DNA of 64,000 nucleotides from a virus, in IMG/VR virus record IMGVR_UViG_3300045988_107973; one strand, given 5' to 3'. The position numbers and the translations under genes are program-made. The notes beneath the pieces are model-generated. The model was not told the DNA's origin and searched no databases. It saw only the letters and a program-made list of their open reading frames with translations. Of the stretch, positions 46,039-62,569 are shown one piece after another. Numbering within the stretch: position 1 is the stretch's first letter; each line of letters starts with the position of its first letter.

Positions 46039-46830
46039 ATGGTAGTTAAACTGATTACACATACTCCTGACCCTGAAAAGGTGGTAGCTGCCGCTGCAAA
46101 ACTGTGTTACTCCAATTCGAGTATTCAGGATTTGATGGATGGACTGACCGATGAGAAGGTCGATGAGTTTCTGAATCGGCTTTCTAGCCTTGGTCACGCT
46201 AGTCCTACGGAGCACGCGACTTTTACTTTTGGAATTGAAGATGTGAGCCGGTCTTTACTTACCCAGATTACCCGGCATCGCATTGCGTCATTCAGTGTAC
46301 AGAGTCAGCGCTATGTGCGAATGAATAATGTAGAGGTCATCGTCCCTGACGTTATCGATGATGATAGCGAAGCAAGAGAGGTATTCAAACAGGCAATTCA
46401 GACAGCTGAATATTCATATAAGCACCTGTGTCAGATTCTTGAGGACAAGATTACTGAGGAACTAATGGTTGCTGATTCTCGTCTGACTGAGAAAAAAGCA
46501 CGCGCAAAAGCATCCAAGATTGCAAATGAGAATGCACGTTCCGTTTTGCCAAATGCTTGTTCTACGAAGATGATTGTTACAATGAACGCTCGTTCGCTGA
46601 ATAATTTCTTTAACCTGCGTTGTTGTGAGCGAGCGCAGCCGGAAATCAGGGAGCTTGCAACTGAGATGCTGAAGCTTGTTTATCCGATTGCTCCTCATCT
46701 GTTTAAGTGTGCTGGTCCCAACTGCTGTGGTAACGGTTGTACCGAAGGTATGATGTCTTGTGGTAAATCCCATGAGATTCGTGATAAATACAACAAATTG
46801 AAACAGGAGGCATTAAATGGAAACACTTGA
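46039..46830 (+). CDS. thyX: flavin-dependent thymidylate synthase ThyX
   Basis: ThyX signature RHRIASFSVQSQRYV (RHRxxSxxxxSxRY). Confidence 0.75.
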   Translation: MVVKLITHTPDPEKVVAAAAKLCYSNSSIQDLMDGLTDEKVDEFLNRLSSLGHASPTEHATFTFGIEDVSRSLLTQITRHRIASFSVQSQRYVRMNNVEVIVPDVIDDDSEAREVFKQAIQTAEYSYKHLCQILEDKITEELMVADSRLTEKKARAKASKIANENARSVLPNACSTKMIVTMNARSLNNFFNLRCCERAQPEIRELATEMLKLVYPIAPHLFKCAGPNCCGNGCTEGMMSCGKSHEIRDKYNKLKQEALNGNT

Positions 46831-47257
46831 CGAAATTAAGAAGAACGTCGAGCACCCGTCTTATTACGGCGGTGCAGACAATCCCTATGAGGCTATCAAA
46901 GTGCTGCGAGAGTGGCAACTGGACAAGGATGCTTATCTTTGGAATGTTGGTAAATATTTGAGCCGGGCAGGACACAAAGATGGCAATTCTCAACTTCAAG
47001 ATTTGACGAAGGCACGTTGGTATTTGGACTATAAAATCCGGCTTTTAGAGGAACAGCAGAAGGTTGCTGAAAGTGTCGTAGATACGCTAAAGAAGATTCC
47101 TAACGAGGTGACTGATGAGCTGACTACGATGTCGGATTACATTCCTCGTCATGCAAAGCCTGACTATACGGATGATTTGGTTTTCCGTCCAGAAATCCAT
47201 ACTCCAAACATTGAGACTGCCGTCGTTCCTGATTGTGCCGACGAGGTAAAATTTTAA
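46817..47257 (+). CDS. DUF3310-family protein (phage nucleotide-metabolism-associated)
   Basis: HPSYYGGADNPYEAIKVLREW...NVGKYLSRAGHKDG...DLTKARWYL matches the DUF3310 pattern. Often found beside thymidylate synthase genes in phages. Confidence 0.45.
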   Translation: METLDEIKKNVEHPSYYGGADNPYEAIKVLREWQLDKDAYLWNVGKYLSRAGHKDGNSQLQDLTKARWYLDYKIRLLEEQQKVAESVVDTLKKIPNEVTDELTTMSDYIPRHAKPDYTDDLVFRPEIHTPNIETAVVPDCADEVKF

Positions 47258-47385
47258 GAGGTTTACATAAATGAGATACACGAGATACAACTGGGAAGGA
47301 CCATTTGCGGCATTCGCCCTGTTTGTTACAATGTTGATTTTTGGCTTTTCCAAATTTGTTTTAAGATAATCAAGGAGAAAAATAC

Positions 47386-48909
47386 ATGAATATGATGTTT
47401 ATTGCAATTCCTGTCGTTATTGTTCTTCTGGTCGCCTTTGCATTTACTTGCTACAAGAAGGCTCCTCCTACTCAGGCAATTGTCGTAACAGGTTTTGGAC
47501 TGTCTAAGCCGAAAGTTATCTGTGGTCGTGGCGTGTTCGTCCTTCCGGTTATTCAGCGAGCTGACCGTCTGAATATGCGACTGCTCAAGATTGATGTCAA
47601 GACTCCTGAAACCGGTGTCAAGACTAAAGAGGGTGTTTCTCTGTGGCTGGACTCTGTTGTTACTGTTCAGGTTTACTCTGAAAACTCTACTGTAACTGAT
47701 GATGAGATTAAGAGCGCCGGTTGCGAGGATGCAAAGACTTACATTAGTGCTCGTCAGCAGGCTGCTATTTCCAACTTCCTGGGCATGAGTGAAGATGGAA
47801 TCAACGAGAAGATCAACGATGTCCTTCAGGGCAATCTGCGAGAGATTGTCTCTGAGATGACTGTCAACGATATCCTGACTAATCGTAAACAGATGGCAAT
47901 TTCCGTTGTTGAGAATGCTCGTCCCGATCTCGCAAAGATGGGTCTGGAAGTTGTTACTTTTAATGTTCAGGATATCAAGGATGCTATTGATGCTCAGGGT
48001 CATAATCATGGTGTCATCGAGGCAATTGGTGTTCAGCAGGAAGAGCTGGTGAAGAAGCAGGCAGAGATTGCTAAGGCTGAAGCCGCTCGTGATATTGCTC
48101 GCGCTAAGGCAGATACTGCTCGTGAATCAAATGAAAAGGAAATTGAATCTAAGACTGCTATTGCACAGCGTAACAATGAGTATCTTCTGACTCAGGCTGC
48201 TCTGAAGGCAGAGGCTGATAAGGCAAATGCTGATGCAGAAGCTGCTGGTGAGATTCAAATGAATCTGCGTGATAAGGAAATCAAGGAAGCTGAGGCTGAC
48301 GCAGCTATTGCAAAGCAGAAGAAGATGGTTGAGTTGGCCGCTCAGGAAGCAGAAGTTCGTCAGCAGAAGCTGGATGCAGAGATTCGTAAGCAGGCAGATG
48401 CTGATTTGTACAAGCGTCAGAAAGAAGCTGAAGCGAAAAAGTACGAGGCAGAACGTTTTGCAGAATCTGCGAAGTTTGCCAAGGAGCAGGAGGCTGAAGG
48501 TATTCGTATGGTCGGTATGGCCGAGGCAGATGCTATCAAGCAGAAAGGTCTTGCTGAGGCAGAAGCTATGCTAAAGAAGGCTGAGGCTTACAAGCAGTAC
48601 AATGGCGCAGCAATGGGAGAGATGATTATCAAAATTCTGCCTAGCATTGCAGAGCAGGTTGCAAAGCCTCTGGCATCTATTGACAAGGTTTCTATTATCG
48701 GCGGTAATGCTAATGGTGTTTCTGAGATTTCTGGAAATGTCCCAGCAGTCATGGCACAGACTTTTGAGGCTGTCAAGGAAGCCACCGGCATTGATATGCG
48801 AGAAATCGTCCGTGCCAATAGTTACGATGCCAAGGTTACCAAGAATGTGAATCTGGTAAGTGATTCTACTATCACTTCCGACAAAGGTGAGACCCATGAC
48901 GCAGAGTAA
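47386..48909 (+). CDS. flotillin-like SPFH/band-7 protein (N-terminal TM, SPFH domain, long EA-rich coiled coil)
   Basis: N-terminal TM IAIPVVIVLLVAFAF. SPFH-like core. About 200 aa of AEAxxxA repeats typical of FloT/YuaG-type flotillins. Confidence 0.6.
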   Translation: MNMMFIAIPVVIVLLVAFAFTCYKKAPPTQAIVVTGFGLSKPKVICGRGVFVLPVIQRADRLNMRLLKIDVKTPETGVKTKEGVSLWLDSVVTVQVYSENSTVTDDEIKSAGCEDAKTYISARQQAAISNFLGMSEDGINEKINDVLQGNLREIVSEMTVNDILTNRKQMAISVVENARPDLAKMGLEVVTFNVQDIKDAIDAQGHNHGVIEAIGVQQEELVKKQAEIAKAEAARDIARAKADTARESNEKEIESKTAIAQRNNEYLLTQAALKAEADKANADAEAAGEIQMNLRDKEIKEAEADAAIAKQKKMVELAAQEAEVRQQKLDAEIRKQADADLYKRQKEAEAKKYEAERFAESAKFAKEQEAEGIRMVGMAEADAIKQKGLAEAEAMLKKAEAYKQYNGAAMGEMIIKILPSIAEQVAKPLASIDKVSIIGGNANGVSEISGNVPAVMAQTFEAVKEATGIDMREIVRANSYDAKVTKNVNLVSDSTITSDKGETHDAE

Positions 48910-48921
48910 AGGAGTGATTGC

Positions 48922-51117
48922 ATGGAATATGTGATTAAACGTGATGGAACGAAAGTTCCTTTTGATAAAAGTAAGATTGTAAACGCGATTGAGAAGGCAA
49001 TGACGAATACGACTGGAGGAGTTGATTCTCGCGTATCTAACGCCATTGCAGACTACATCGCAGACATCCCTGATACGATGTCTGTAGAGCAGATTCAGGA
49101 TGTGGTTATTGACCAGTTGAAAAATAGCCCTCTTTCGGATGTGGCTGATGCTTATAGTCACTGGCGTATTCTTCGGCAGGAGATTCGTGAGAAGCAGCGA
49201 GCATATGGCGAAATTCTTTCCATCTGTGATGTAGATAATGAGAAGGTCAAGCAAGAGAACAGTAACAAAAATCCTGTTGTGAATAGCGTACAGCGTGACT
49301 ATATGGCTGGCGAAGTCTCCAAAGATCTGAGCTTTAATCTGCTTCTTCCAAAAGATATTGTGGATGCTCACTATGATGGTAGAATTCACTTCCACGATTC
49401 CGACTACTTTGCCCAGCATATGTTTAACTGCTCGTTAGTTAATCTGGAAGATATGTTGCAAAACGGCACTGTGATTTCTGGTACAGGAATTGACAAACCA
49501 CATAGTTTCTCTACAGCGTGCAATATTGCAACCCAGATCATTGCACAGGTTGCTTCAAATCAGTATGGTGGTCAGAGTATTACTCTGTCTCATTTGGCTC
49601 CCTTCGTGGATATCTCTCGAAAGAAGATCGCGGGTGAAGTCTATGAGGAATTTTACGACATGATTCAAAACAATGAGATTGACAAAATGCCAAATCAGGA
49701 GACTATCAATCGAATTGTAGAGAAGCGTTTACATAAAGAAATCGTTGCAGGCGTTCAGACTATTCAGTATCAGGTTATTACTTTGATGACCACCAACGGG
49801 CAGGCTCCTTTTATTACCATTTTTATGTACCTTGATGAAGTTCCTGAAGGCCAGACCCGTGATGACCTTGCAATTATCATTGAAGAAGTCCTTCGTCAGC
49901 GCATTAAAGGTGTGAAGAATGAGACTGGAGCATGGATTACTCCGGCTTTCCCAAAGTTGATTTATGTGCTGGAAGAAGACAACATTCGAGATAATTCTAA
50001 GTATTATTATCTGACTGAACTGGCAGCTAAATGTACGGCCAAGAGATTCGTACCTGACTACATTTCTGAGAAGAAGATGTTGGAGTACAAAGGTGCTTGC
50101 TACCCCTGTATGGGATGTCGCAGCTTCCTGACTCCTGATCGAACCACCGAGAATATTTCTGGTGCCATGAATTGGGAGAAGGGTCACAAGTATTATGGTC
50201 GCTTTAATGCCGGTGTTGTCACCATCAATCTGGTAGATGTTGCTTGTAGCTCTAAAAAGGATGTTTCTGAGTTTTGGAAAATTTTTGATGAGCGTCTTGA
50301 ACTATGCCATCGAGCACTTCAGATTCGGTATAAGCGATTGATGGGTACGCCTTCTGATGTGAGTCCAATTCATTTTCAGCATGGTGCAATCGCACGTTTA
50401 AAGAAGGGTGAAAAGATTGATAAGCTCCTGTTTGACGGATATGCAACTATCAGTCTTGGTTATGCTGGTCTGTACGAGTGTGTAAAATATATGACCGGCA
50501 AGAGCCACACCGACGATGAAGCAAAACCTTTTGCCCTCGAAATCATGCAGCACATGAATGACAAGTGCAATGAGTGGAAAGCCGCTGAAAATATTGATTA
50601 TAGTTTGTACGGAACACCGTTGGAATCCACTACATTCAAGTTTGCTAAGTGCTTACAGAAGAAGTTCGGTATCATTCCAGATGTAACAGACCATGATTAC
50701 ATCACCAATAGCTATCATGTCGTGGTTCGTGAGCATATTGACGCATTCAAGAAGCTGGAGTTTGAGTCTGAATTTCAGCAGCTGTCTCCCGGCGGAGCCA
50801 TCTCGTATATCGAGTGCCCTAATATGACCAACAATATTCCTGCCGTGATGAATGTTATTAAGTACATTTACGACACCATTATCTACGCAGAACTGAATAT
50901 CAAATCTGATTATTGCCAGGTCTGTGGTTACGACGGCGAGATTAAGATTGTTGAAGATAACGGTAAGCTCGTTTGGGAATGCCCGAACTGTGGTAATCGT
51001 GACCAGAATAAACTGAATGTTGCACGACGTACCTGCGGATTTATCGGCACTCAGTTCTGGAATCAGGGTCGCACTCAGGAAATTCGAGATCGAGTGGTTC
51101 ATTTGAGCGATAATTAA
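48922..51117 (+). CDS. nrdD: anaerobic ribonucleoside-triphosphate reductase NrdD (class III)
   Basis: N-terminal ATP-cone (VIKRDGTKVPFDKSKI). C-terminal zinc ribbon CQVCGY...CPNCG. Glycyl-radical motif RRTCGFIG. Confidence 0.75.
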   Translation: MEYVIKRDGTKVPFDKSKIVNAIEKAMTNTTGGVDSRVSNAIADYIADIPDTMSVEQIQDVVIDQLKNSPLSDVADAYSHWRILRQEIREKQRAYGEILSICDVDNEKVKQENSNKNPVVNSVQRDYMAGEVSKDLSFNLLLPKDIVDAHYDGRIHFHDSDYFAQHMFNCSLVNLEDMLQNGTVISGTGIDKPHSFSTACNIATQIIAQVASNQYGGQSITLSHLAPFVDISRKKIAGEVYEEFYDMIQNNEIDKMPNQETINRIVEKRLHKEIVAGVQTIQYQVITLMTTNGQAPFITIFMYLDEVPEGQTRDDLAIIIEEVLRQRIKGVKNETGAWITPAFPKLIYVLEEDNIRDNSKYYYLTELAAKCTAKRFVPDYISEKKMLEYKGACYPCMGCRSFLTPDRTTENISGAMNWEKGHKYYGRFNAGVVTINLVDVACSSKKDVSEFWKIFDERLELCHRALQIRYKRLMGTPSDVSPIHFQHGAIARLKKGEKIDKLLFDGYATISLGYAGLYECVKYMTGKSHTDDEAKPFALEIMQHMNDKCNEWKAAENIDYSLYGTPLESTTFKFAKCLQKKFGIIPDVTDHDYITNSYHVVVREHIDAFKKLEFESEFQQLSPGGAISYIECPNMTNNIPAVMNVIKYIYDTIIYAELNIKSDYCQVCGYDGEIKIVEDNGKLVWECPNCGNRDQNKLNVARRTCGFIGTQFWNQGRTQEIRDRVVHLSDN

Positions 51118-51239: not shown

Positions 51240-52091
51240 ATGAAGAAATTTATGGCAATTTTCGTTGCATTCCTCATTGCAGTCGGTGCGGTGCTTTGTA
51301 CCGAGCGAGTACATACTGGCTATGTTGGTGTTGTTTATTCTGCAAAGGGTGTTGAGCAGCAGACTATTTCTCAGGGCTGGCATTTCATGAGTCCACTGAA
51401 GCATGTGTCTGAGTTCCCGATTACTCAGCAGCGAGTGGTATTTTCTAATGCTCCGTCCGACTATGGCGTAAAGGAACACGCAGATTGGCACATTGATGCC
51501 CCTGCTAATGGCGGTACGATTGCAATCAACCTGACTGTCAATTATAACTTCCTGCCGGAGCATGTTGTTGAACTGTACACCAAGTTTGGTGGTATGGACG
51601 GTGAGAGCCTGATGGAGAGCAAGATTCAGAACGATATTATTGCTTACGTCAAGGAAGTTACTCCTCAGTTCAGTGTCATGCAGATTTATTCCGATGATCG
51701 AGCAGGTGTGAATACTGCAATCACCAACTATCTGAATGAGAAGCTGACCGCAGAGTATGGAATCAATGTTTCCTCTGCTCTGATTGTGGATGCACAGCCT
51801 GATGATACCCTGATGCAGAAGATTCGCGCAAAGGAGCAGGCAAAGCAGGACGCAGAGATTGCAGAGCTGAATAAGCAGACCGCTCTGGCTCAGGCGGAGA
51901 CTGATAAGGTTAAGGCACAGACGGAAGCTGACGTTAAGATGATTGAAGCACAGGCCGAGGCTGATGCAAATAAGGTGCTTTCCGAGTCTATCACTCCTGA
52001 GCTGATTCAGATGAAGGAAGCAGAAGCTCGTCTGAAGCATGGTTGGGTGACTGTACAGGGTGCTGATACCGTTGTAACTAAGGGTGAGTAA
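51240..52091 (+). CDS. SPFH/band-7 domain membrane protein (HflK/C- or prohibitin-like)
   Basis: Signal/TM N-terminus. SPFH-like core (GYVGVVYS...). C-terminal coiled coil (AKEQAKQDAEIAELNKQTALAQAE). Confidence 0.55.
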   Translation: MKKFMAIFVAFLIAVGAVLCTERVHTGYVGVVYSAKGVEQQTISQGWHFMSPLKHVSEFPITQQRVVFSNAPSDYGVKEHADWHIDAPANGGTIAINLTVNYNFLPEHVVELYTKFGGMDGESLMESKIQNDIIAYVKEVTPQFSVMQIYSDDRAGVNTAITNYLNEKLTAEYGINVSSALIVDAQPDDTLMQKIRAKEQAKQDAEIAELNKQTALAQAETDKVKAQTEADVKMIEAQAEADANKVLSESITPELIQMKEAEARLKHGWVTVQGADTVVTKGE

Positions 52092-52465: not shown

Positions 52466-52466
52466 G

Positions 52467-54369: not shown

Positions 54370-54738
54370 ATGGCGAAATACATTCCTGAAAATGCTCGAT
54401 GGGCGGATATCACTCCTTTGCTAGATGAGATTGACAGTGGCTTAAAACATATGCGCTTTTATGACGAACAAGATGACTATTCTGATTTTCTAGCAGAAGA
54501 ACGCGAAGATCTACTGAGGCTTCCGAAAGCAGAATCTAATACGGTTCGCGCTATCGCACACTGGGATCACTGGTCATGCGATGACGAAGAAGACTTTGTA
54601 TATCATTGCTCTAACTGTAGTGAACAGTTTTACGAAGATTTCTTTTATCCTCGTGAGAATCCTTGTGTTGGTTCTGAAAAGTATAAACCTTTTAAGTATT
54701 GCCCTTATTGCGGGGCGAAAATGGAGGGCGTTAAATGA
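54370..54738 (+). CDS. hypothetical zinc-ribbon protein; paralog of the 43580..43879 product
   Basis: C-terminal AHWDHWSCDDEED...YCPYCGAKMEG. Confidence 0.4.
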   Translation: MAKYIPENARWADITPLLDEIDSGLKHMRFYDEQDDYSDFLAEEREDLLRLPKAESNTVRAIAHWDHWSCDDEEDFVYHCSNCSEQFYEDFFYPRENPCVGSEKYKPFKYCPYCGAKMEGVK

Positions 54739-55262
54739 ACTACGCTAAAATTGTTCCATGTGATATTGCGAATGGGCCAGGCGTAAGAGTCACGTTGTTC
54801 TGCGCGGGATGTAACCATCATTGCCCCGGCTGTCAGAATCCTACCACATGGGACCCGAATGGTGGTCAGCCATTCACAGATGAAATGCTTGATAAAATTG
54901 TAGATTTACTTCGACCTGATTATATTCAAGGGCTTACGCTCACTGGTGGAGATCCACTATATCCTGAGAACAGAGAAGTTGTTGAGAAAATCGTCCGTCG
55001 TGTATGGGCTGAATTTCAGGACAAAAAAGACGTTTGGCTCTGGACTGGATATAAGTGGGAAGAATTGTGGAATCAGGATGGGCTCGTAGCTGACATTCTT
55101 GCTAACATCAACGTCCTCGTAGATGGTCCTTTTATTGAAGCAGAAAAAGATATTTCACTTCCATACATGGGAAGCAAGAACCAACGAGTAATTGATATTA
55201 AATGGAGTCTTGGATATAAAGAGCCAACCCTTTGGTGGGCTCCAGAAGAGAAAGGAAAATAA
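54735..55262 (+). CDS. nrdG: anaerobic ribonucleotide reductase activating protein NrdG (radical SAM)
   Basis: Product contains CDIANGPGVRVTLFCAGCNHHCPGCQN, the CxxxCxxC cluster typical of NrdG. Confidence 0.7.
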   Translation: MNYAKIVPCDIANGPGVRVTLFCAGCNHHCPGCQNPTTWDPNGGQPFTDEMLDKIVDLLRPDYIQGLTLTGGDPLYPENREVVEKIVRRVWAEFQDKKDVWLWTGYKWEELWNQDGLVADILANINVLVDGPFIEAEKDISLPYMGSKNQRVIDIKWSLGYKEPTLWWAPEEKGK

Positions 55263-55263: not shown

Positions 55264-55797
55264 ATGGATTTAGGAAACGCAACTACTAATCTTGGCTATG
55301 GCATGAGTCGAATGCCGTATCGCCCAAACATTAAAATCAATAAACTACACGATGATGCTCATCTTCCGACTTATGGTTCTAAAAATGCTGCTTGTGCAGA
55401 CCTGTATGCCTATATCGGTTTTGATGACGCAACGATGGTAAACAAGAATGGTGACCGTTGCATCATGATTCAGCCGGGCGAAACCGTTAAGGTATCCACT
55501 GGGCTGCGGATGGCTCCGCCGGAAGGCTGGTACGTTGCTATCTATGCTCGCAGCGGTATGGCAACCAAGCAGGGTTTGGCTCCTGCGAATAAAACAGGAA
55601 TTTGTGATCAGGATTACCGTGGGGAATACATCGTAGCACTACATAATCATTCTAATATCCCTCAAATGATTACTCACGGTGATCGCATTGCTCAGATGGC
55701 GGTTGTTCCGTTCTGGCAGGCTGATTTTGAAGAAGTTTCCGAATTGGACGAAACTGAGCGTGGCGGCGGTGGGTTTGGATCTACTGGGGTGAAGTAA
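55264..55797 (+). CDS. dut: dUTP diphosphatase (trimeric dUTPase)
   Basis: Motifs AACADLYA, ARSGMATKQGL, GICDQDYRGE, GDRIAQM and GGGGFGSTG. Confidence 0.75.
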   Translation: MDLGNATTNLGYGMSRMPYRPNIKINKLHDDAHLPTYGSKNAACADLYAYIGFDDATMVNKNGDRCIMIQPGETVKVSTGLRMAPPEGWYVAIYARSGMATKQGLAPANKTGICDQDYRGEYIVALHNHSNIPQMITHGDRIAQMAVVPFWQADFEEVSELDETERGGGGFGSTGVK

Positions 55798-56146: not shown

Positions 56147-56620
56147 ATGATTGTTATTGGATATCCATGTGTTGGTAAAAGTACATACGCAGTTGGTCAT
56201 CCGTATCGTGCAATCGACCTTGAAAGTAGTAATTTTGTAAAGGATGATAATTGGGTCAAATCGTATTGCAATGTCGCTATTGATTTATCGAGACAGGGAC
56301 ATGTTGTGTTCGTATCTTCACATGATGCAGTTCGTAAACAGCTTTTGAAGAGTAATTACGAATATGTTTTTGTGATCTATCCAGCTCTTGATATTAAAGA
56401 AGAGTGGCTTGAACGGCTTCACGAAAGATATTCAGAAACTGAACTCGATAAAGATTATCGTGCATGGCAGCGTGCTCTGAATTATTACGATGAAGATATT
56501 GCAAAACTCAAAGAAGACGCAAAGAACTTTAGTGGGTTTTATGAAATTGGTCATGGCCGATATGACCTTACTGTAATTCTGGATGAATTTGACTATGGTT
56601 CGACTTGGGACCATTCGTAA
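56147..56620 (+). CDS. P-loop NTPase, putative (d)NMP/polynucleotide kinase-like
   Basis: Walker A IVIGYPCVGKST at the N-terminus. Small size and position among nucleotide-metabolism genes suggest a kinase role. Confidence 0.45.
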   Translation: MIVIGYPCVGKSTYAVGHPYRAIDLESSNFVKDDNWVKSYCNVAIDLSRQGHVVFVSSHDAVRKQLLKSNYEYVFVIYPALDIKEEWLERLHERYSETELDKDYRAWQRALNYYDEDIAKLKEDAKNFSGFYEIGHGRYDLTVILDEFDYGSTWDHS

Positions 56621-56665
56621 TTGTTAATTGAGCTTAACGGGTGGGTGGGAGAAATAAAAATCATT

Positions 56666-56896
56666 ATGCATAAGACTGATAGTTTGAAAAATCCAGTAAT
56701 CGTATTCCATTGTAAGAACTGCGGTTGTACAACTAAGATTCGAGTGACTTCTTTTGAAAATACTGATTTGAATATTCCTGAGAACAATGTGATTGCGTGC
56801 TATAGATGTAGAGCAGAAGTTGTTGGATCGGAGTTTATTTCTTGGAAAGAAGCAACTAAAACTATTTTTACCGTGGAGGTGCCAGATGGCGATTAA
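56666..56896 (+). CDS. hypothetical zinc-ribbon protein
   Basis: Product contains CKNCG...CYRC. Start uncertain. Confidence 0.35.
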   Translation: MHKTDSLKNPVIVFHCKNCGCTTKIRVTSFENTDLNIPENNVIACYRCRAEVVGSEFISWKEATKTIFTVEVPDGD

Positions 56897-57119
56897 AATT
56901 ATTCAACATAAGCAGACTCCAAAAGAACTTGCATATCATTTTAAATGTGGTTGTGGTTGTGAATTTTGGTCTGATTCGGGATTCGGAAGGTGTTTTGGTT
57001 GCGAAGTCATTAAATGTGATTTTATTTTATCAAACATAATGTCCAGAATGCGGCAGTCGTGCAGTCGTGTAGAGAGTCATGATGAGCCTGTTTTGAGAGA
57101 AGAAATTTTTGACGATTAA
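56886..57119 (+). CDS. small zinc-ribbon protein; paralog of the 58507..58743 product
   Basis: HFKCGCGCEFWSD...EIFDD aligns with HFECSCGCEFWAD...EVFDD in the 58507..58743 product. Confidence 0.4.
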   Translation: MAIKIIQHKQTPKELAYHFKCGCGCEFWSDSGFGRCFGCEVIKCDFILSNIMSRMRQSCSRVESHDEPVLREEIFDD

Positions 57120-57161
57120 AATGTAAATTTAGGGGTGGGTGGGAGGAATGAGAGGATGTGA

Positions 57162-57899
57162 ATGGAACTTTATAATGATGATTGTCTGAAAATTATGCCA
57201 CAAATCACAGATAAATCTATCGATATGATTCTTTGTGACTTGCCATATGGTGTCACTCACAATAAATGGGATTCTGTGATTCCTTTCGACAAGCTGTGGG
57301 AACAATACAATCGAATCATCAAAGATAACGGTGCGATTTGTCTGTTTGCTGATGGAATGTTCATGGCAGATCTTATGGAAAGTAACCGCAAAATGTGGCG
57401 ATATAATCTCGTGTGGGATAAAGTTCTTTCATCTGGATTTTTGAATGCAAAACGAATGCCACTCCGCAGTACAGAAGAAATTGTTGTTTTTTATAAGAAG
57501 CTTCCTACATATAATCCACAATTCACAGAAGGTAAACCGCTCCACGGAATGGGCACAAAATATAAAGAAGGAAACCGTAAAAACAACAACTACGGCAACT
57601 TTAATTCTACAAATCAGGCATCTGCGGAAAGAGCGGGTGACACGAAAAAGTATCCGAAATCGCTGGTGACATTTCAAAGAGCACATAGTTCCGTTATGCT
57701 CCATCCAACCGAGAAACCGGTAGCTTTGATGGAGTGGCTTATCAGTACTTACACAAATAAGGGTGAGATCATTCTTGATAATTGTATGGGTGTTGGTGGA
57801 AGTGGTATTGCCGCTAAAAATCTTGAACGAAATTATATTGGTATAGAACTTGACCAAAAATGTTTTGAGATTGCCAAAGAAAGAATCGAGGTATCATGA
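57162..57899 (+). CDS. DNA methyltransferase, N6_N4_Mtase family (beta-class; N6-adenine or N4-cytosine)
   Basis: Motif IV ILCDLPYG (DPPY type). C-terminal motif I HPTEKPVALMEWLI...DNCMGVGGSG. Confidence 0.65.
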   Translation: MELYNDDCLKIMPQITDKSIDMILCDLPYGVTHNKWDSVIPFDKLWEQYNRIIKDNGAICLFADGMFMADLMESNRKMWRYNLVWDKVLSSGFLNAKRMPLRSTEEIVVFYKKLPTYNPQFTEGKPLHGMGTKYKEGNRKNNNYGNFNSTNQASAERAGDTKKYPKSLVTFQRAHSSVMLHPTEKPVALMEWLISTYTNKGEIILDNCMGVGGSGIAAKNLERNYIGIELDQKCFEIAKERIEVS

Positions 57900-58142: not shown

Positions 58143-58496
58143 ATGGTTTACGACATTAAAACAGTCCCAGAAGATACCCCTCTATGGTGTACTGGATTTA
58201 GATTTGACGATACAAAGGCTGGCATCAAATGTGAGCCTGTCTTTGGTACTTTTGAAGAAAGAAGTTGCTATTCTAAGTTCCATACCTTGAGTAACAAAAC
58301 TAGATCAAAGACTTTTAGCGTTGGGGCAAATCCTGATTGTTATCGTTTCGCAGACACTTATGAAGAAGCGGCAACTGAATATAATGGTATGATTTTCGCT
58401 GCCAAATACGAGCTTATGAAAAAACAAGAATATCTAGAGCAGTGCTTGCTGGCTGATAAGAATGGGTCAGTATATAATCGTGTGAGTATGCAGTAA
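58143..58496 (+). CDS. hypothetical protein
   Basis: ORF after GAGGAATAAAAT. Confidence 0.35.
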   Translation: MVYDIKTVPEDTPLWCTGFRFDDTKAGIKCEPVFGTFEERSCYSKFHTLSNKTRSKTFSVGANPDCYRFADTYEEAATEYNGMIFAAKYELMKKQEYLEQCLLADKNGSVYNRVSMQ

Positions 58497-58506
58497 GGAG
58501 TATAGT

Positions 58507-58743
58507 ATGGCATATCAAATTATTAAACATAGAATTGTGAAACCTATAGAGTACGCGGTACATTTCGAGTGCAGTTGTGGCTGTGAGTTTTGGGCAGACC
58601 AAAATTCTGTTACGGAATATTGTATGCGTGGAGGACTGGACGTTTCTAAGTTCCTTCATTATGAAACAAGATGCCCAGAATGTACTAGCATTGCTTATAG
58701 CGTAGAGGTAGCTGTTCCAAGGGACGAGGTTTTTGACGATTGA
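58507..58743 (+). CDS. small zinc-ribbon protein; paralog of the 56886..57119 product
   Basis: See the 56886 feature. RBS AAGGAG. Confidence 0.4.
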   Translation: MAYQIIKHRIVKPIEYAVHFECSCGCEFWADQNSVTEYCMRGGLDVSKFLHYETRCPECTSIAYSVEVAVPRDEVFDD

Positions 58744-58763
58744 AATGTATGTTTTAGAAAGAG

Positions 58764-59171
58764 GTGAGAACAATAGAAATTTGGGAGTTGAATCTTCTAC
58801 ATGATGGTGATATAGAACGAATATGTGTGTGCTCTGACGAGCAACCACTATTCGAAATGGCGGTCGATAGGGCAGTTAGTTTACTTGAAAAAATAAATGA
58901 ATGGCCGCTTGAACAAGAACATTGCTATACTTCTGTAAATGTAAACGCACATCTTCGTTCTATTTTTGTGAAAATCAGTACACAAGATAATAGTACAGTT
59001 GAACTCTGGGAGTATAAATGGGAATGTATTTATAAAGAACCTCATGAAGACAAAGCTAGTAACACCTTACTTCAGGAAGTTGTTTCTTGTGTACGAGACA
59101 TTCCAAAACTATTTTATGATTGGGCAGAGAATTTCTGTTGGAAAGCGAGAAAAAATGGCTATTTGCAGTAA
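58764..59171 (+). CDS. hypothetical protein
   Basis: ORF after AAGAGGTG (GTG start). Confidence 0.35.
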   Translation: MRTIEIWELNLLHDGDIERICVCSDEQPLFEMAVDRAVSLLEKINEWPLEQEHCYTSVNVNAHLRSIFVKISTQDNSTVELWEYKWECIYKEPHEDKASNTLLQEVVSCVRDIPKLFYDWAENFCWKARKNGYLQ

Positions 59172-59222
59172 ATGTTTACATAAAGAAGTATGCGCTTATA
59201 GAAAGCATTCAGGAGATTGATT

Positions 59223-59519
59223 ATGAAAGTTGTAGAGCTCATCAACAAACTAAACGAAATCGGATACGACGAGAATACTGAACTGACATTTGGATTCGCA
59301 GACGGTAATACTGGAGAATGGTACAATGCTCCATTTGATGAGATCACCTATGGTATTGATTTGACCGGAGAACCATACCATAATGATGTACTCAATATTG
59401 ATGTTGATGTTGATTCTGTAAAAGAATATCAAAAAGATAAAGCAGAGTGCGCTGTTATTGATATTGTAGAAGAAATGCAGGATGTTTTGAATAGACACAT
59501 TCGGAGGGTTAATTTTTAA
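59223..59519 (+). CDS. hypothetical acidic protein
   Basis: ATG after AGGAGATTG. Confidence 0.35.
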   Translation: MKVVELINKLNEIGYDENTELTFGFADGNTGEWYNAPFDEITYGIDLTGEPYHNDVLNIDVDVDSVKEYQKDKAECAVIDIVEEMQDVLNRHIRRVNF

Positions 59520-59842
59520 TGGTCGAAATTAACGGAAAGAAATACGAAATCGTAGGAATCTCTTTTGACACATCAAACAATCCAAACAAGAAGTTCTTCA
59601 AACCGGTTTACATAATGCCGGATGGAGATGTCGTAGCTTGCGATGGGACTCACGATTTCAATTATGATCCTAACAAAGAAATTCAAATTGTTCCAAAGGA
59701 ATCTATCCCATTTTATGGCAAGCCAACAGAGCCTGCTGTTTATTGTGATGATGATGGCAACTATGTGGATGTTGACGGTAATCCTCTCGGTATGAAATGG
59801 GACGACTTTATGGAGAAACAGTTCCGAACAGTAAATAAATAA
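59519..59842 (+). CDS. hypothetical protein
   Basis: ORF with ATG overlapping the upstream stop. Confidence 0.35.
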   Translation: MVEINGKKYEIVGISFDTSNNPNKKFFKPVYIMPDGDVVACDGTHDFNYDPNKEIQIVPKESIPFYGKPTEPAVYCDDDGNYVDVDGNPLGMKWDDFMEKQFRTVNK

Positions 59843-59906
59843 CGTATCATCGCTATAAAAATTAGAAAATAATACGGTAAAACTAGACTTTTATGAGGTG
59901 GATTGA

Positions 59907-60368
59907 TTGGACGATAGATTTTCAATCGAAAAAAATCACTGGGAAATACAAAATCCAGAATGGGAGAGCTATTCTCATTTCATCTGCACTAAAGACCATT
60001 ATTGGACTGGTGTACACGGTATCAGCAACTATTTTCTTCAATATAAGAATTTTGGCAGAAGTAAACCAGTCGAACGATTTTCTGTAGAATGGCCGAACTT
60101 CGTAGAGCACATGTGGTTTATCCATTGGCGTGGCCCATGGGACTATATCTTTGCTTCATATAAATTATCCGAGATTAAACGATTTTTAGAACTTGATATT
60201 GATACTATTAAAAAGAACCATTGGCCGGATGGACGCTGTACTTGCTACAGTATTTATGACTACGTGAAGAAAAAATGGTACTATTTTAAAATCGAAAATT
60301 TGGGAACATTTTATGGATGCAAGTGGCCGTTAGGTGATGATACTGGTGAGGTGATTAGTTGTGACTAA
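59907..60368 (+). CDS. hypothetical Trp-rich protein
   Basis: ORF after GAGGTGG. Confidence 0.4.
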   Translation: MDDRFSIEKNHWEIQNPEWESYSHFICTKDHYWTGVHGISNYFLQYKNFGRSKPVERFSVEWPNFVEHMWFIHWRGPWDYIFASYKLSEIKRFLELDIDTIKKNHWPDGRCTCYSIYDYVKKKWYYFKIENLGTFYGCKWPLGDDTGEVISCD

Positions 60369-60849
60369 GCAAATAGGCTGTTATAAATCCGACTGGTACA
60401 TTATGGGCATCGATGGAAAATATAACAATGCCTGTATCTCGCATACAGAATCACAGCTTCGGTATACAGTTCCAAGGTCGCCAGAATGGACTATCAATGG
60501 ATTGGGCTTTGCTTACCTTAGAGAACATGGATTTGAAGATTATCCTGAACTCTATGGTATTGTATTCTATGATATGGAGTGGTGGCGACGAAAACGCTAT
60601 CCGGGTGACTTTTATGTAGAGATACCAATTTGCGATTCGTGTGCGGATACCTTTCATTTAAAATGGCGTTGTAAGGAATTTCGTGTACACCAGTGGTCTA
60701 ACTTGAGAAAAGAAACAAAGTGGGTGAAAGGCAGAAGTAGTTACACTGTTTGTGAACTTGCACATAAGTTGCCACACGAAGAATTTATAGAATATCTTAA
60801 AGACAACGGCATCTATATTGTAAACGAAGGTGGTGTTGAACTTGGATGA
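60361..60849 (+). CDS. hypothetical Trp/Cys-rich protein
   Basis: ORF overlapping the upstream stop. Confidence 0.4.
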   Translation: MTKQIGCYKSDWYIMGIDGKYNNACISHTESQLRYTVPRSPEWTINGLGFAYLREHGFEDYPELYGIVFYDMEWWRRKRYPGDFYVEIPICDSCADTFHLKWRCKEFRVHQWSNLRKETKWVKGRSSYTVCELAHKLPHEEFIEYLKDNGIYIVNEGGVELG

Positions 60850-61288
60850 TAAAATTTGTTTTGTGAATTACCGACCATACCTTACAATAGTAGATTACGG
60901 AGATTGGACTCCAAGATGGAAAATCGCATATTGGATTGATATAGATGGATTTAAGCCTGGATTTAGAATCTCAAGGAACTTCATTCATCCATATCTAAAT
61001 AACGTCACGCGCCCATGTTTAAACGTAGTAGCCTATGTCGATATGTATGATCCATTCGTTAAAACACTTTTGTTGAGTTGTATGACAACAGATAAGTCAA
61101 ACCTAATTCCGGGTGATTTATATCTTGTGTGGAGATGTCCCGGTAATTTTTCATGGCCGGACTGCGAGCCACATTTTACATTAAGAAAGTTCAATCAGAA
61201 ATATTTATTCAAAGATGGCGACGTGAAATGTTGGGTGAATATGAAAAATATCGATTGGAGCAAACAATGGCTCCTTCATCGTATTTGA
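60830..61288 (+). CDS. hypothetical protein
   Basis: ORF with non-ATG start (GTG/TTG). Confidence 0.35.
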   Translation: MVLNLDDKICFVNYRPYLTIVDYGDWTPRWKIAYWIDIDGFKPGFRISRNFIHPYLNNVTRPCLNVVAYVDMYDPFVKTLLLSCMTTDKSNLIPGDLYLVWRCPGNFSWPDCEPHFTLRKFNQKYLFKDGDVKCWVNMKNIDWSKQWLLHRI

Positions 61289-61382
61289 GGCAATAAATGA
61301 GTAAAAATAATAGCGATAATTCGTTAAATAAAAGCGACAAATTTACAGTAGAATTAGGGTTTTATAAAGGAGAATGTTTATA

Positions 61383-61646
61383 ATGGATTACAAAGATGCA
61401 GATAGTCTTTCTTCTAAAATATTTGCGTTGATTGCTTCGGCTACAGTGTTGATTATAGCCATTGTTTTTCTTCGTATTATTCAAGTGGATTTTAATAATG
61501 CCAAGTGGCATGATGGCATCTGTCTAAAGGACAATACTCATTGGCAGTATAGTAATAGCACCCACAACAGATTTTGGAGATGCGACTATTATATATGCGA
61601 TAACGGTCATGTCATTGAACTTGTCAACGATTATGAAATACGATAA
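61383..61646 (+). CDS. hypothetical membrane protein
   Basis: ATG after AAAGGAGAATG. TM segment IFALIASATVLIIAIVFL. Confidence 0.35.
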   Translation: MDYKDADSLSSKIFALIASATVLIIAIVFLRIIQVDFNNAKWHDGICLKDNTHWQYSNSTHNRFWRCDYYICDNGHVIELVNDYEIR

Positions 61647-61675
61647 AACTTGAATTCTTATAAAGGAGGTTCACA

Positions 61676-62569
61676 ATGATTATTGATTGCAAATCTATTG
61701 CACAAGATATCAAAAATAAAATCAAGAATATTATCGCAGAAGCTGACTACGCTCCTGTTTTACTTATTTATCAAGTAGGGGACAACCCTGCATCCAATGC
61801 TTATATTCGCGGCAAGCTGCGTGACTGTGAAGAGGTTGGAATCGAAGCGGAGCTTATCAAGCTGCCAGAAAATATTACCGAAGATGAATTGAACAACAAG
61901 ATCTTAGAAGATTATAAGATCTTAGAAGATTATAATTGGGAAGATGTGGACGGTATTATTGTTCAGCTCCCGCTGCCAAAACATATCAATCCTAAGAATA
62001 TCATTATTCCAGACGAACTTGACGTTGATGGTTTTAATTCTACATCACCATTTCAGCCTTGCACTCCACTTGGCGTTATGAAGATTTTTGATTCCATCGG
62101 TTACAATTTGGATGGCAAGAATGTGCTTGTATGTGGTCAGTCTGATATTGTGGGTCGTCCACTGGTCAATATGCTGATTAAGCGGCATTGTAATGTGATT
62201 AGTATTAACAGCTCTACGGAGAAATACGTTCGTGATGAAATGCTTCTTCGTGCAGATGTTCTTATAACAGCTACTGGTCGCATGAATCTTATCACAGAGA
62301 ACGACCTTGATTATAAATGGTGCACTGAAATCAATGGCTATGAAAACTCTGGCTCTTGTCCAGATCTTATTATTGACGTTGGTATCAATTACAAGGATGG
62401 CAAGCAGTATGGGGATTGCTCCGATGAGCTGCGCTCTGAGAAATATAACCATTGCTTCGATATTACCCCTCGTATCGGCGGAGTTGGACTTATGACACGT
62501 GCCATGCTACTTTATAATGTATGTGTGGCAAGGTATGGGGAAGAGAAGATGGAGGAGGTGATTGAATGA
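61676..62569 (+). CDS. folD: bifunctional methylenetetrahydrofolate dehydrogenase/cyclohydrolase FolD
   Basis: FolD-typical motifs YIRGKLRDCEEVGI, DVDGFNSTSPFQPCTPLGVMKI, VLVCGQSDIVGRPL, and GGVGLMTRAMLLYN (GG-G-TxAxL). Contains an 18-bp in-frame tandem duplication (KILEDYKILEDY). Confidence 0.7.
   Translation: MIIDCKSIAQDIKNKIKNIIAEADYAPVLLIYQVGDNPASNAYIRGKLRDCEEVGIEAELIKLPENITEDELNNKILEDYKILEDYNWEDVDGIIVQLPLPKHINPKNIIIPDELDVDGFNSTSPFQPCTPLGVMKIFDSIGYNLDGKNVLVCGQSDIVGRPLVNMLIKRHCNVISINSSTEKYVRDEMLLRADVLITATGRMNLITENDLDYKWCTEINGYENSGSCPDLIIDVGINYKDGKQYGDCSDELRSEKYNHCFDITPRIGGVGLMTRAMLLYNVCVARYGEEKMEEVIE
61898..61933 (+). repeat. perfect 18-bp tandem duplication inside folD
   Basis: aagatcttagaagattat occurs twice in tandem. 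Confidence 0.85.

What the first reader, a model, noticed from the sequence alone, without database searches (positions are those of the whole stretch)
46039..62569. Extended thymidylate/folate auxiliary module: ThyX + DUF3310 + NrdDG + dUTPase + kinase-like + FolD, with an internal 18-bp duplication in folD
ThyX needs CH2-THF. FolD (61676..62569, clear FolD motifs) regenerates it from CH-THF/formyl-THF. Carrying folD next to thyX, dut and class III RNR points to a phage that reprograms dTTP synthesis under anaerobic conditions. folD contains a perfect in-frame 18-bp tandem duplication (KILEDYKILEDY) in a surface loop region, a recent slippage event. DUF3310 sits directly after thyX, as in many phages.
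Basis: partly seen in the sequence, partly recalled or inferred. Interest (0 to 1): 0.5.

Follow-up and report, generated by a model that had tools for sequence, protein, structure and literature searches.

The report
Gut phage thymidylate genes plus FolD
A large temperate phage of the gut anaerobe Faecalibacterium carries an intact, conserved set of DNA-precursor genes (ThyX, class III ribonucleotide reductase, dUTPase, FolD). This is a coherent but already recognised kind of phage metabolic gene set, and the 18-bp repeat inside folD is a real, recent change seen only in this genome.

Summary
All named genes sit at the stated coordinates and are intact, and a perfect in-frame 18-bp tandem duplication lies at 61898-61933 in folD.

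**FolD itself**
- It keeps the catalytic Tyr, Lys, Gln and Asp (Y43, K47, Q97, D118).
- Its predicted structure is a FolD/MTHFD fold (TM about 0.8).
- It is under strong purifying selection (median dN/dS 0.11 over 82 alleles).
- It is present in 72 of 72 related gut viral contigs that extend far enough.
- It always lies downstream of nrdG-dut, and its stop codon usually overlaps the start of a Tn916-type xis, followed by int.

**Host and element.** The host is Faecalibacterium. The relatives are viral contigs of mostly 100-150 kb, and several of them end in host DNA just after the integrase.

**The duplication.** It is absent from 120 close homologues, from IMG/VR and from JGI metagenomes. A 99.9% identical sister contig differs in folD only by this indel and one SNP. 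It lengthens a surface helix.

- DUF3310 is the domain found in the T7 gp1.7 nucleotide kinase.
- The "module" is interrupted by two SPFH genes, a DNA methylase and more than 20 unknown small ORFs.
- FolD alone cannot recharge the THF that ThyX releases. A host formate-THF ligase or serine hydroxymethyltransferase (SHMT) is needed, and the direction of flux is unknown.

**Novelty.** Phage folD is already a PHROG family, is annotated in Enterococcus phages, and is listed among common gut-virome auxiliary metabolic genes (AMGs). The finding is ordinary and of modest interest.

The parts
46039..46830 (+). thyX, flavin-dependent thymidylate synthase (263 aa) with a Cys-rich C-terminal tail beyond the Thy1 domain
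   Evidence: Pfam Thy1 1e-68. TIGR02170 188.6 bits against a cutoff of 87.9. The RHRxxS...SQRY motif is readable in the translation.
46817..47257 (+). DUF3310-domain protein (146 aa), candidate gp1.7-type nucleotide (dTMP/dGMP) kinase
   Evidence: PF11753 2.2e-10, above cutoff. phrog_236 'nucleotide kinase' 3.8e-21. T7 gp1.7 itself hits PF11753 at 4.5e-23. Pairwise BLASTP against gp1.7 is not significant.
47386..48909 (+). Membrane-anchored flotillin-like SPFH protein (507 aa). It interrupts the nucleotide genes and its role is unknown.
   Evidence: Band_7 2.7e-19 and Flot 1.7e-8. NCBIfam FloT 5e-77, below the curated cutoff.
48922..51117 (+). nrdD, class III (anaerobic) ribonucleoside-triphosphate reductase with an ATP-cone
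   Evidence: NRDD 1.4e-188, ATP-cone 1.9e-22, Gly_radical 7e-17. The C-terminal RRTCGF glycyl-radical motif and a four-Cys ribbon are visible in the translation.
51240..52091 (+). Second SPFH/Band-7 membrane protein (283 aa)
   Evidence: Band_7 7e-24. phrog_200 1.9e-54. Found at 96-100% identity in 25 folD-anchored loci and detected in 57 of 80 dut-anchored loci.
54735..55262 (+). nrdG, radical-SAM activase of NrdD
   Evidence: Fer4_12 4e-48. phrog_626 1.4e-56. The CNHHCPGC cluster motif is in the translation.
55264..55797 (+). dut, trimeric-type dUTPase (177 aa)
   Evidence: dUTPase 4.5e-20. TIGR00576 132 bits against a cutoff of 102.6. The GICDQDYRGE and RGGGGFGSTG motifs are in the translation.
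56147..56620 (+). Small P-loop kinase-fold protein (157 aa), substrate unknown. It is accessory, present in 16-20 of 80 relatives.
   Evidence: Walker A motif GYPCVGKST. phrog_4182, unknown function. AF2 pLDDT 93. Foldseek hits are mostly NMP, nucleoside or shikimate kinases, with E from 3e-4 to 1e-2 and TM about 0.5. An nr relative is named 'kinase fold'.
57162..57899 (+). N6/N4 DNA methyltransferase. It is accessory and not part of the nucleotide pathway.
   Evidence: N6_N4_Mtase 2.2e-27. Present in 9-11 of 80 relatives.
61676..62569 (+). folD, methylene-THF dehydrogenase / methenyl-THF cyclohydrolase (297 aa) of a divergent short-linker lineage
   Evidence: Both Pfam domains match. phrog_7320 7e-54. 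PDB FolDs match at 4e-36. Foldseek TM is 0.76-0.83 against FolD/MTHFD. Y43, K47, Q97 and D118 align with E. coli Y50, K54, Q98 and D121. dN/dS is 0.11.
61898..61933 (+). Perfect in-frame 18-bp tandem duplication (KILEDY twice; FolD residues 75-86)
   Evidence: TRF finds 2.1 copies at 100% match. Absent from 120 homologues, from sister contigs L088 and L089, from IMG/VR and from JGI metagenomes. The unduplicated junction is found in 4 IMG/VR contigs.
62566..62760 (+). Tn916-type excisionase. Its ATG overlaps the folD stop codon (ATGA).
   Evidence: Tn916-Xis 1.7e-21. phrog_16129. The overlap is read from the sequence and is conserved in about 60 loci.
62834..64000 (+). Tn916-type tyrosine integrase, at the end of the prophage
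   Evidence: Phage_integrase 4e-34 and Integrase_DNA 6e-19. Host DNA at 55-60% GC begins just after the homologous gene in L083, L001, L087 and L088.

Best explanation
The interval is the DNA-precursor section of the replication half of a large temperate phage of Faecalibacterium. Its relatives are viral contigs of mostly 100-150 kb.

**Proposed pathway.** The section encodes an oxygen-independent route from ribonucleoside triphosphates to thymidylate:
1. NrdD, activated by NrdG, reduces NTPs to dNTPs, including dUTP and dCTP.
2. dUTPase converts dUTP to dUMP.
3. ThyX methylates dUMP to dTMP, using CH2-THF as carbon donor and NADPH/FAD as reductant. It releases THF, so no dihydrofolate reductase is needed.
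4. The DUF3310 protein, which shares its domain with the T7 gp1.7 nucleotide kinase, may then make dTDP.

**Role of FolD.** FolD is an intact, selected, core gene of this phage group. It interconverts CH2-THF, CH+-THF and 10-formyl-THF. This ties the ThyX cofactor pool to the host's one-carbon supply. The most plausible scheme is that host formate-THF ligase loads formate onto THF and phage FolD reduces it to CH2-THF for ThyX.

**Expression.** folD is the last gene before xis-int and is translationally coupled to xis, so it is probably expressed on induction rather than in the lysogen.

**The duplication.** It is a recent replication-slippage event that adds six residues to the end of a surface helix. 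It is probably neutral.

**Shown versus inferred.** Shown: gene identities, intact motifs, selection, synteny, host, and the fact that the duplication is confined to this genome. Inferred: enzyme activities, direction of FolD flux, timing of expression, and kinase activity of the DUF3310 protein.
For: - **Family and motif assignments:**
- **FolD catalytic residues:** conserved against PDB FolDs and E. coli FolD. Y43, K47 and D118 are invariant and Q97 is at least 90% conserved in 33 phage homologues.
- **FolD structure:** AF2 model with pLDDT 80 and pTM 0.80. It matches FolD/MTHFD1/MTHFD2 structures at TM 0.76-0.83.
- **Selection:** median dN/dS is 0.11 over 3214 pairs of 82 alleles.
- **Synteny:** of 81 folD-anchored loci with a full 10-kb upstream flank, 80 have nrdG and dut 3-7 kb upstream; the exception is L002. 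In dut-anchored loci folD is present in 72 of 72 contigs that extend more than 5 kb downstream. nrdD is found in 78, thyX in 67 and DUF3310 in 70 of 80.
- **Backbone gene:** folD stays in place while the neighbouring integrase varies from 22% to 100% identity. It therefore belongs to the phage backbone, not to the integration cassette.
- **No ThyA or DHFR:** neither has a homologue in the window. This is consistent with ThyX chemistry.
- **Host:** the folD locus occurs in a Faecalibacterium MAG contig, and GC jumps from about 0.33-0.44 to 0.55-0.60 after the integrase.
- **DUF3310:** T7 gp1.7 carries this domain (PMC10700055).
- **The duplication:**
Against: - No enzyme activity or expression data exist for any of these genes.
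- folD is 15 kb from thyX and about 6 kb from dut. More than 20 unknown small ORFs lie between them, and no shared regulatory signal was found. Promoter and terminator scans were at chance level and there is no riboswitch.
- FolD is reversible, so the direction cannot be read from sequence.
- This FolD lineage is divergent in several ways:
  - NCBIfam FolD equivalog scores are about 165 bits against cutoffs of 333-559.
  - The linker between DVDGF and PCTP is 9 residues shorter than in E. coli.
  - The PGGVGPMT motif reads RIGGVGLMT.
  - A 15-residue, low-confidence insert lies at residues 212-226.
  Altered activity or cofactor use therefore cannot be excluded.
- The DUF3310 protein shares only a 60-residue domain with gp1.7.
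- Only about half of the phage genome is in the window, so other folate genes could lie outside it.
Confidence: 0.6

Rival explanations
1. FolD runs in the oxidative direction during infection. It takes CH2-THF made by host SHMT and converts it to 10-formyl-THF plus NAD(P)H. These products feed purine synthesis and fMet-tRNA formylation, and supply reductant that ThyX also needs. On this reading FolD serves general nucleotide and protein demand rather than feeding ThyX.
For: FolD is a reversible bifunctional enzyme (established biochemistry). folD is not adjacent to thyX and is separated from all nucleotide genes by about 6-15 kb of unknown ORFs. The phage replicates a large genome with its own DnaE-type polymerase, helicases and ligase, so purine demand is high. 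No formate-THF ligase was identified among the ORFs examined in the window.
Against: No purine-synthesis gene was identified in the window. The conserved co-occurrence is with thyX, dut and nrdDG. An isolated Enterococcus phage also places folD beside thymidylate synthase and DHFR, which points to thymidylate as the linked function.
Confidence: 0.3
2. folD is a lysogenic-conversion (moron-like) gene at the prophage end. It would be expressed in the lysogen and benefit the Faecalibacterium host's one-carbon metabolism rather than phage replication.
For: It is the last cargo gene before xis-int, at the prophage-host junction. That is a typical position for morons. A gut-virome survey finds folD-carrying viruses enriched in healthy controls together with Faecalibacterium phages (PMC11938785).
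Against: folD is co-oriented with the upstream lytic and replication genes. Its stop codon overlaps the xis start (ATGA), and this arrangement is conserved in about 60 loci. Xis is expected to be silent in a stable lysogen. folD is core in 72 of 72 relatives and is only 35-40% identical to cellular FolDs, so it is not a recent host capture. No separate promoter or terminator stands out.
Confidence: 0.07
3. The 18-bp duplication is an assembly or sequencing artefact, or it inactivates FolD, so that this particular copy is a dead allele.
For: The duplicated junction was found in no other sequence: 120 homologues, IMG/VR and JGI metagenomes. AF2 confidence drops to below 50 at residues 86-88, right after the duplicated segment.
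Against: A perfect in-frame 18-bp tandem copy is not a typical assembler error. The same spot is naturally length-variable in relatives (DYNYNW; RVCDRVCE). The model keeps the helix continuous through both copies, and the following strand carrying Q97 is intact. The site is on the surface helix preceding strand 93-97, not at the YxxxK, Q or D residues.
Confidence: 0.03

Closest known systems
Phage-encoded FolD (PHROG 7320, 'tetrahydrofolate dehydrogenase and cyclohydrolase'), e.g. Enterococcus phage VRE9_2 (PP680568.1), phage H1 and Lak megaphages
   Same: These are phage-borne bifunctional FolD homologues. In VRE9_2, folD lies within 6 kb of a thymidylate synthase. That is the same thymidylate/one-carbon association seen here.
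   Different: Identity is only 31-37%. VRE9_2 pairs FolD with ThyA and DHFR, whereas this phage uses ThyX and has no DHFR in the window. The VRE9_2 and Lak enzymes keep the long DVDG...(C/A)TP linker and the PGGVGP motif. This lineage has a linker 9 residues shorter and reads RIGGVGL. Those phages are a virulent isolate and megaphages; this one is temperate, with folD coupled to xis.
Gut-virome auxiliary metabolic gene K01491 (folD) reported with thyX/thyA (Chinese Gut Virus Catalogue, PMC11938785)
   Same: Methylenetetrahydrofolate dehydrogenase and thymidylate synthases are listed among the frequent AMGs of gut viral genomes and are enriched in control-associated vOTUs. In the same analysis, many control-enriched vOTUs were predicted to infect Faecalibacterium. 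This is very probably the same kind of element.
   Different: That survey gives KEGG counts only. It offers no gene-level anatomy, synteny, catalytic-residue check or lineage description.
Cellular FolD / MTHFD (E. coli FolD 1B0A and 5O22; human MTHFD1 and MTHFD2)
   Same: Two-domain fold with TM 0.76-0.83. The YxxxK, Q and D catalytic residues and the GxSxxVGxP Rossmann motif are present.
   Different: About 33-38% identity. It falls below all NCBIfam FolD equivalog cutoffs. It has the 9-residue linker deletion, the 15-residue insert at 212-226 and an altered GGVG motif context.
T7 gp1.7 nucleotide kinase (DUF3310)
   Same: Both proteins match PF11753 above its cutoff. PHROGs labels the family 'nucleotide kinase'.
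   Different: The domain is N-terminal here (residues 11-71) and C-terminal in gp1.7 (residues 122-184). There is no pairwise similarity outside it. Which part of gp1.7 carries the kinase activity is not known to me.
Phage nucleotide-metabolism clusters with NrdDG, ThyX and Dut (common in phages of anaerobes and facultative hosts)
   Same: The same enzymes and the same logic: the phage secures its dNTP supply independently of oxygen.
   Different: Here FolD is added as a core gene. Two SPFH membrane proteins flank nrdD.

Membership tests
THF dehydrogenase/cyclohydrolase (FolD/MTHFD; Pfam PF00763 + PF02882) | Both domains present, above Pfam gathering scores, in the canonical order | tested here: met
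   PF00763 scores 91.1 bits (cutoff 32.8) at residues 3-117. PF02882 scores 113.2 bits (cutoff 27) at residues 124-284.
THF dehydrogenase/cyclohydrolase (FolD/MTHFD) | Catalytic YxxxK motif (E. coli Y50 and K54) | tested here: met
   Y43 and K47 align with E. coli Y50 and K54 and with PDB FolDs. They are invariant in 33 phage homologues.
THF dehydrogenase/cyclohydrolase (FolD/MTHFD) | Pterin-binding Gln (VQLPLP) and Asp (DVDGF), equivalent to E. coli Q98 and D121 | tested here: met
   Q97 and D118 are conserved.
THF dehydrogenase/cyclohydrolase (FolD/MTHFD) | Rossmann dinucleotide-binding motif GxSxxVGxP | tested here: met
   The motif reads GQSDIVGRP (residues 154-162) and aligns with E. coli GASNIVGRP.
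THF dehydrogenase/cyclohydrolase (FolD/MTHFD) | Conserved PxPGGVGPMT loop | tested here: inconclusive
   The GGVG..MT core is kept, but the flanking residues read TPRIGGVGLMT. The nearest relatives mostly read VPGGVGL(L/M)T. The functional consequence is unknown.
THF dehydrogenase/cyclohydrolase (FolD/MTHFD) | Overall two-domain fold | tested here: met
   The AF2 model has pLDDT 80. The top 50 Foldseek PDB hits are all FolD/MTHFD, with TM 0.69-0.83.
THF dehydrogenase/cyclohydrolase (FolD/MTHFD) | Dehydrogenase and cyclohydrolase activities; NADP or NAD preference | not testable with these tools
   This requires enzyme assays.
FolD equivalog as named by NCBIfam (e.g. NF008058) | Score above the curated equivalog cutoff | tested here: not met
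   The best scores are 165-167 bits against cutoffs of 355-421. It is a divergent lineage, so I file it at family level and not as an equivalog.
ThyX (flavin-dependent thymidylate synthase) | TIGR02170 above cutoff and the RHRxxS...SxRY signature | tested here: met
   188.6 bits against a cutoff of 87.9. TRHRIASFSVQSQRY is in the translation.
Class III RNR (NrdD/NrdG) | NRDD domain, C-terminal glycyl-radical motif and Zn ribbon, and a radical-SAM activase with CxxxCxxC | tested here: met
   RRTCGF, the four-Cys ribbon and CNHHCPGC are read from the translations.
Trimeric dUTPase | TIGR00576 above cutoff, with motifs 3 and 5 | tested here: met
   132 bits against a cutoff of 102.55. GICDQDYRGE and RGGGGFGSTG are in the translation.
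T7 gp1.7-type nucleotide kinase | DUF3310 domain | tested here: met
   The window protein scores 40.9 bits (cutoff 24). T7 gp1.7 scores 81.5 bits.
T7 gp1.7-type nucleotide kinase | Full-length similarity to gp1.7, and dTMP/dGMP kinase activity | tested here: not met
   BLASTP gives E = 44, and the domain sits at the opposite end of the protein. The activity is not testable here. I treat 'kinase' as a lead only.
P-loop NMP/nucleoside kinase fold (protein at 56147-56620) | Walker A motif and a kinase-type P-loop fold | tested here: met
   GYPCVGKST lies at residues 5-13. The model has pLDDT 93. Foldseek hits are mostly such kinases but are weak (E at best 3e-4, TM about 0.5). The substrate is undetermined.
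Tn916-type Xis/Int integration module | Tn916-Xis domain, plus Integrase_DNA and Phage_integrase domains | tested here: met

The most novel reading that the evidence does not exclude
The short-linker FolD of this phage group may be a phage-adapted FolD subfamily with altered properties. Its distinguishing features are a linker 9 residues shorter between DVDGF and PCTP, RIGGVGLMT in place of PGGVGPMT, variable surface inserts, and mosaic alleles. The altered property could be a changed cofactor preference, loss of one of the two activities, or direct hand-off of CH2-THF to ThyX. Its conserved translational coupling to xis would then tie one-carbon reprogramming to the moment of prophage excision.
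Probability: 0.1. Interest if true: 0.5.

Novelty: new member of a known kind. Interest (0 to 1): 0.25.

Why it matters
It documents, gene by gene, that a widespread group of large temperate Faecalibacterium phages keeps a complete oxygen-independent thymidylate route, with FolD as a core gene under selection. That gives anatomical substance to the "folate AMG" counts reported in gut virome surveys.

It also offers a natural pair of FolD alleles, 291 and 297 aa, that differ by a single six-residue insertion and one substitution and could be compared directly in enzyme assays. It does not reveal a new mechanism.

Tried and rejected
- **Promoter and terminator scan, 45.5-64 kb:** counts were at shuffle level (52 found against 49 expected; 12 against 11), so it says nothing about operon structure.
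- **Rfam at gathering thresholds over the whole window:** only tRNAs were found. No THF or ZTP riboswitch lies upstream of folD.
- **Pfam and PHROGs on about 25 small ORFs between nrdD and folD:** no informative matches, and no glutaredoxin, flavodoxin, DHFR or other folate enzyme.
- **tblastn of phage ThyA and DHFR against the window:** nothing.
- **PADLOC on the SPFH proteins, the P-loop protein and the DUF3310 protein:** no hits. Only the unrelated GmrSD_N protein matched, to NsnA.
- **BLASTP of the DUF3310 protein against T7 gp1.7:** not significant.
- **The T7 gp1.7 papers (PMC3436134, PMC2453740):** not held. The kinase link rests on PMC10700055 and the Pfam test.
- **Genome-collection scan:** gave only 3 loci, one of them a Faecalibacterium MAG. 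The host call rests on that record title and on GC jumps in several loci.
- **Literature searches:** "Faecalibacterium + prophage + nrdD" and "methylenetetrahydrofolate dehydrogenase + phage + thyX" both returned nothing.
- **Rejected idea, recent capture from the host:** the nearest sequences outside the clade are at most 55% identical, and typical cellular FolDs are about 35-42% identical.
- **Rejected idea, inactive remnant:** the catalytic residues are intact and dN/dS is 0.11.

Full report
**Observation**

They match the expected families:
- ThyX, 46039-46830: Thy1 1e-68; TIGR02170 188.6 bits against a cutoff of 87.9.
- DUF3310 protein, 46817-47257, overlapping the end of thyX.
- NrdD, 48922-51117, with ATP-cone, NRDD and glycyl-radical domains.
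- NrdG, 54735-55262.
- dUTPase, 55264-55797.
- A P-loop protein, 56147-56620.
- FolD, 61676-62569, with both FolD Pfam domains.

Signature motifs can be read directly from the translations. They are RHRxxS...SQRY in ThyX, RRTCGF plus a four-Cys ribbon in NrdD, CNHHCPGC in NrdG, and GICDQDYRGE and RGGGGFGSTG in Dut.

Tandem Repeats Finder reports a perfect 18-bp repeat of 2.1 copies at 61898-61935. The sequence shows AAGATCTTAGAAGATTAT twice, in frame, encoding KILEDYKILEDY.

The interval is not a compact module. It also holds two SPFH/Band-7 membrane proteins flanking nrdD, an N6/N4 DNA methyltransferase, and more than 20 small ORFs with no family match.

**What the element is**

The first 46 kb of the window encode a DnaE-type DNA polymerase, a DnaB-like helicase, a RecJ-like exonuclease, a helicase/exonuclease V-like protein, an ATP-dependent DNA ligase, a PNK/phosphatase/RNA-ligase fusion, methyltransferases and eight tRNAs. 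The window ends with a Tn916-type excisionase and integrase.

Relatives found through FolD or Dut are IMG/VR viral contigs, mostly 100-150 kb long. In them folD sits about 2.3 kb from the contig end.

Several lines point to the host:
- In a Faecalibacterium MAG contig (L083), GC jumps from 0.33-0.44 to 0.55-0.60 just after the integrase.
- A carboxyltransferase/biotin-carrier host flank follows the integrase in L001 (ORF translations) and in L087 and L088 (Pfam calls).

The window is therefore the replication and nucleotide-metabolism half of a large temperate Faecalibacterium phage. Its polymerase is at most 34% identical to any isolate in the phage collection.

**FolD**

Catalytic residues. 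Aligned with E. coli FolD taken from MG1655 and with PDB FolDs, the protein keeps Y43, K47, Q97 and D118. These correspond to E. coli Y50, K54, Q98 and D121. It also keeps the GxSxxVGxP Rossmann motif. Across 33 phage homologues, Y43, K47 and D118 are invariant and Q97 is conserved in at least 90%.

Structure and selection. The AF2 model (pLDDT 80, pTM 0.80) matches FolD, MTHFD1 and MTHFD2 structures at TM 0.76-0.83. Across 82 alleles the median pairwise dN/dS is 0.11.

Divergence. The protein is nevertheless unusual:
- NCBIfam FolD equivalog scores are about 165 bits against cutoffs of 333-559.
- The linker between DVDGF and PCTP has 9 residues, against 18 in E. coli.
- PGGVGPMT reads RIGGVGLMT.
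- A 15-residue low-confidence insert lies at residues 212-226.

The short linker is shared by about 78 of 113 scorable nearest 50%-cluster representatives. The FolDs of Enterococcus phage VRE9_2 and Lak megaphages do not share it. This is therefore a separate lineage with many members.

Mosaicism. The window allele is mosaic at the nucleotide level. Positions 1-530 and the 3' end resemble the common 275-aa type (L001). Positions 540-830, which include the insert, resemble the 292-aa type (L002).

**The duplication**

- None of the 120 closest homologues carries it.
- P0001 (291 aa) equals the window protein minus six residues, with one substitution.
- Sister contigs L088 and L089 are 98.6-99.4% (L088) and 98.9% (L089) identical to the window at the nucleotide level. 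In L089 the only differences over about 1.77 kb are one mismatch and the 18-bp gap. The L088 folD differs from the window's only by the 18-bp indel and one SNP.
- The exact duplicated junction has no hit in IMG/VR or JGI metagenomes. The unduplicated junction is found in four IMG/VR contigs.
- The same spot varies in length in relatives (DYNYNW; RVCDRVCE).
- In the model, helix 69-85 runs through both copies and confidence falls at residues 86-88, before strand 93-97, which carries Q97.

It is a recent event seen only in this genome, most simply explained by replication slippage. The unit contains an internal AAGAT repeat. It lies at the end of a surface helix rather than within a loop.

**Is the gene set a unit?**

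- Of 81 folD-anchored loci with a full 10-kb upstream flank, 80 have nrdG and dut 3-7 kb upstream; the exception is L002.
- In dut-anchored loci, folD is present in 72 of 72 contigs that extend more than 5 kb downstream. The eight without it are all truncated. nrdD is found in 78, thyX in 67 and DUF3310 in 70 of 80.
- ThyX and DUF3310 remain adjacent even where they are only 30-40% identical to the window versions.
- folD persists next to integrases ranging from 22% to 100% identity, and its stop overlaps the xis start in about 60 loci.
- The P-loop protein (16-20 of 80), the methylase (9-11 of 80) and SPFH1 are accessory.

The enzymes form a conserved backbone set with variable filler between them.

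**Mechanism**

Established biochemistry, which I cite from my own knowledge:
- NrdD/NrdG reduces NTPs anaerobically.
- Dut yields dUMP.
- ThyX uses CH2-THF as carbon donor and NADPH/FAD as reductant. It releases THF, so no DHFR is needed.

Consistent with this, the window has no ThyA or DHFR homologue. Enterococcus phage VRE9_2, by contrast, pairs ThyA with both DHFR and FolD within 6 kb.

DUF3310 is the domain of the T7 gp1.7 nucleotide kinase (PMC10700055). The protein could therefore make dTDP, but only the domain is shared.

The P-loop protein has a confident kinase-type fold. Its substrate is unknown.

FolD links CH2-THF with 10-formyl-THF. To recharge the THF released by ThyX it needs a host formate-THF ligase. 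Alternatively, SHMT supplies CH2-THF directly and FolD drains part of it to formyl-THF and NAD(P)H. I favour the thymidylate-supply reading because of the conserved co-occurrence. The direction remains inferred.

**Comparison with what is known, and novelty**

Phage folD is already on record in several places:
- It has its own PHROG, phrog_7320.
- It is found in 54 phage records, including annotated Enterococcus phages and Lak megaphages.
- It is listed among the frequent gut-virome AMGs together with thyX and thyA, with a link to Faecalibacterium phages (PMC11938785).

This locus is a new and divergent member of a known kind. Interest is modest. The value of the analysis lies in the anatomy, the evidence for selection and synteny, and the natural allele pair.

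Noticed in passing
window 47386-48909 and 51240-52091: Two membrane-anchored SPFH/Band-7 proteins flank nrdD. One is flotillin FloT-like (507 aa); the other is 283 aa and matches phrog_200. The 283-aa protein is 96-100% identical in 25 related loci, whereas folD in the same loci is only 71-74% identical. It has no PADLOC match. SPFH genes have been noted in other phage genomes in the literature.
   Followed up: partly
window 20033-22297 and 22364-23702: A 754-aa polynucleotide kinase/phosphatase/RNA-ligase fusion (phrog_8238) is followed directly by an array of eight tRNA genes: Leu x3, Pro, Gln, Gly x2 and Met. This looks like a tRNA repair-and-supply unit.
   Followed up: no
window 62566-62569; loci L003-L082: The folD stop codon overlaps the start of the Tn916-type xis gene (ATGA). 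The overlap is conserved in about 60 related loci even where the integrase type differs (22-100% identity).
   Followed up: partly
window 61676-62569 compared with L001 and L002: folD is mosaic. The 5' 530 nt and the last 100 nt resemble the 275-aa allele type. The middle 300 nt, which include a 15-aa insert, resemble the 292-aa type. This implies recombination between folD lineages.
   Followed up: yes
window FolD residues 119-128; This FolD lineage lacks 9 residues of the conserved GFHPxNxGxL linker and reads RIGGVGLMT instead of PGGVGPMT. Most of the nearest 50%-cluster representatives share the short linker. The Enterococcus-phage and Lak FolDs do not.
   Followed up: partly
window 46700-46830 (ThyX residues about 222-263); L001 1471-2160: ThyX has a Cys-rich C-terminal tail (CAGPNCCGNGCTEGMMSCG) beyond the Thy1 domain. 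The distantly related ThyX of L001 (31% identical) also ends in a Cys-rich tail.
   Followed up: no
L001 3149-6151: The NrdD of the related phage MT835556.1 is at least 1000 aa, against 731 aa here. The extra length comes from an insertion of about 270 aa that splits the conserved sequence, which looks intein-like. Some other relatives carry an NrdD only 27% identical.
   Followed up: no
window 13937-14713 and 9217-10086: There is a GmrSD_N / NsnA-like protein (PADLOC NsnA 1.7e-17). There is also a second tyrosine-recombinase-family ORF, far from the terminal integrase.
   Followed up: no
window 56658-57132; 56793-57119 and 58507-58743: About 475 bp are present here but absent from the near-identical sister contig L088. 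The segment holds a small Zn-ribbon ORF that is paralogous to the ORF at 58507-58743 (shared AYxFxCxCGCEFWxD).
   Followed up: partly
whole window compared with host flanks (L083, L001): The phage DNA has about 36-48% GC, while the Faecalibacterium host flank has 55-60% GC. This is an unusually large gap between a temperate phage and its host.
   Followed up: no
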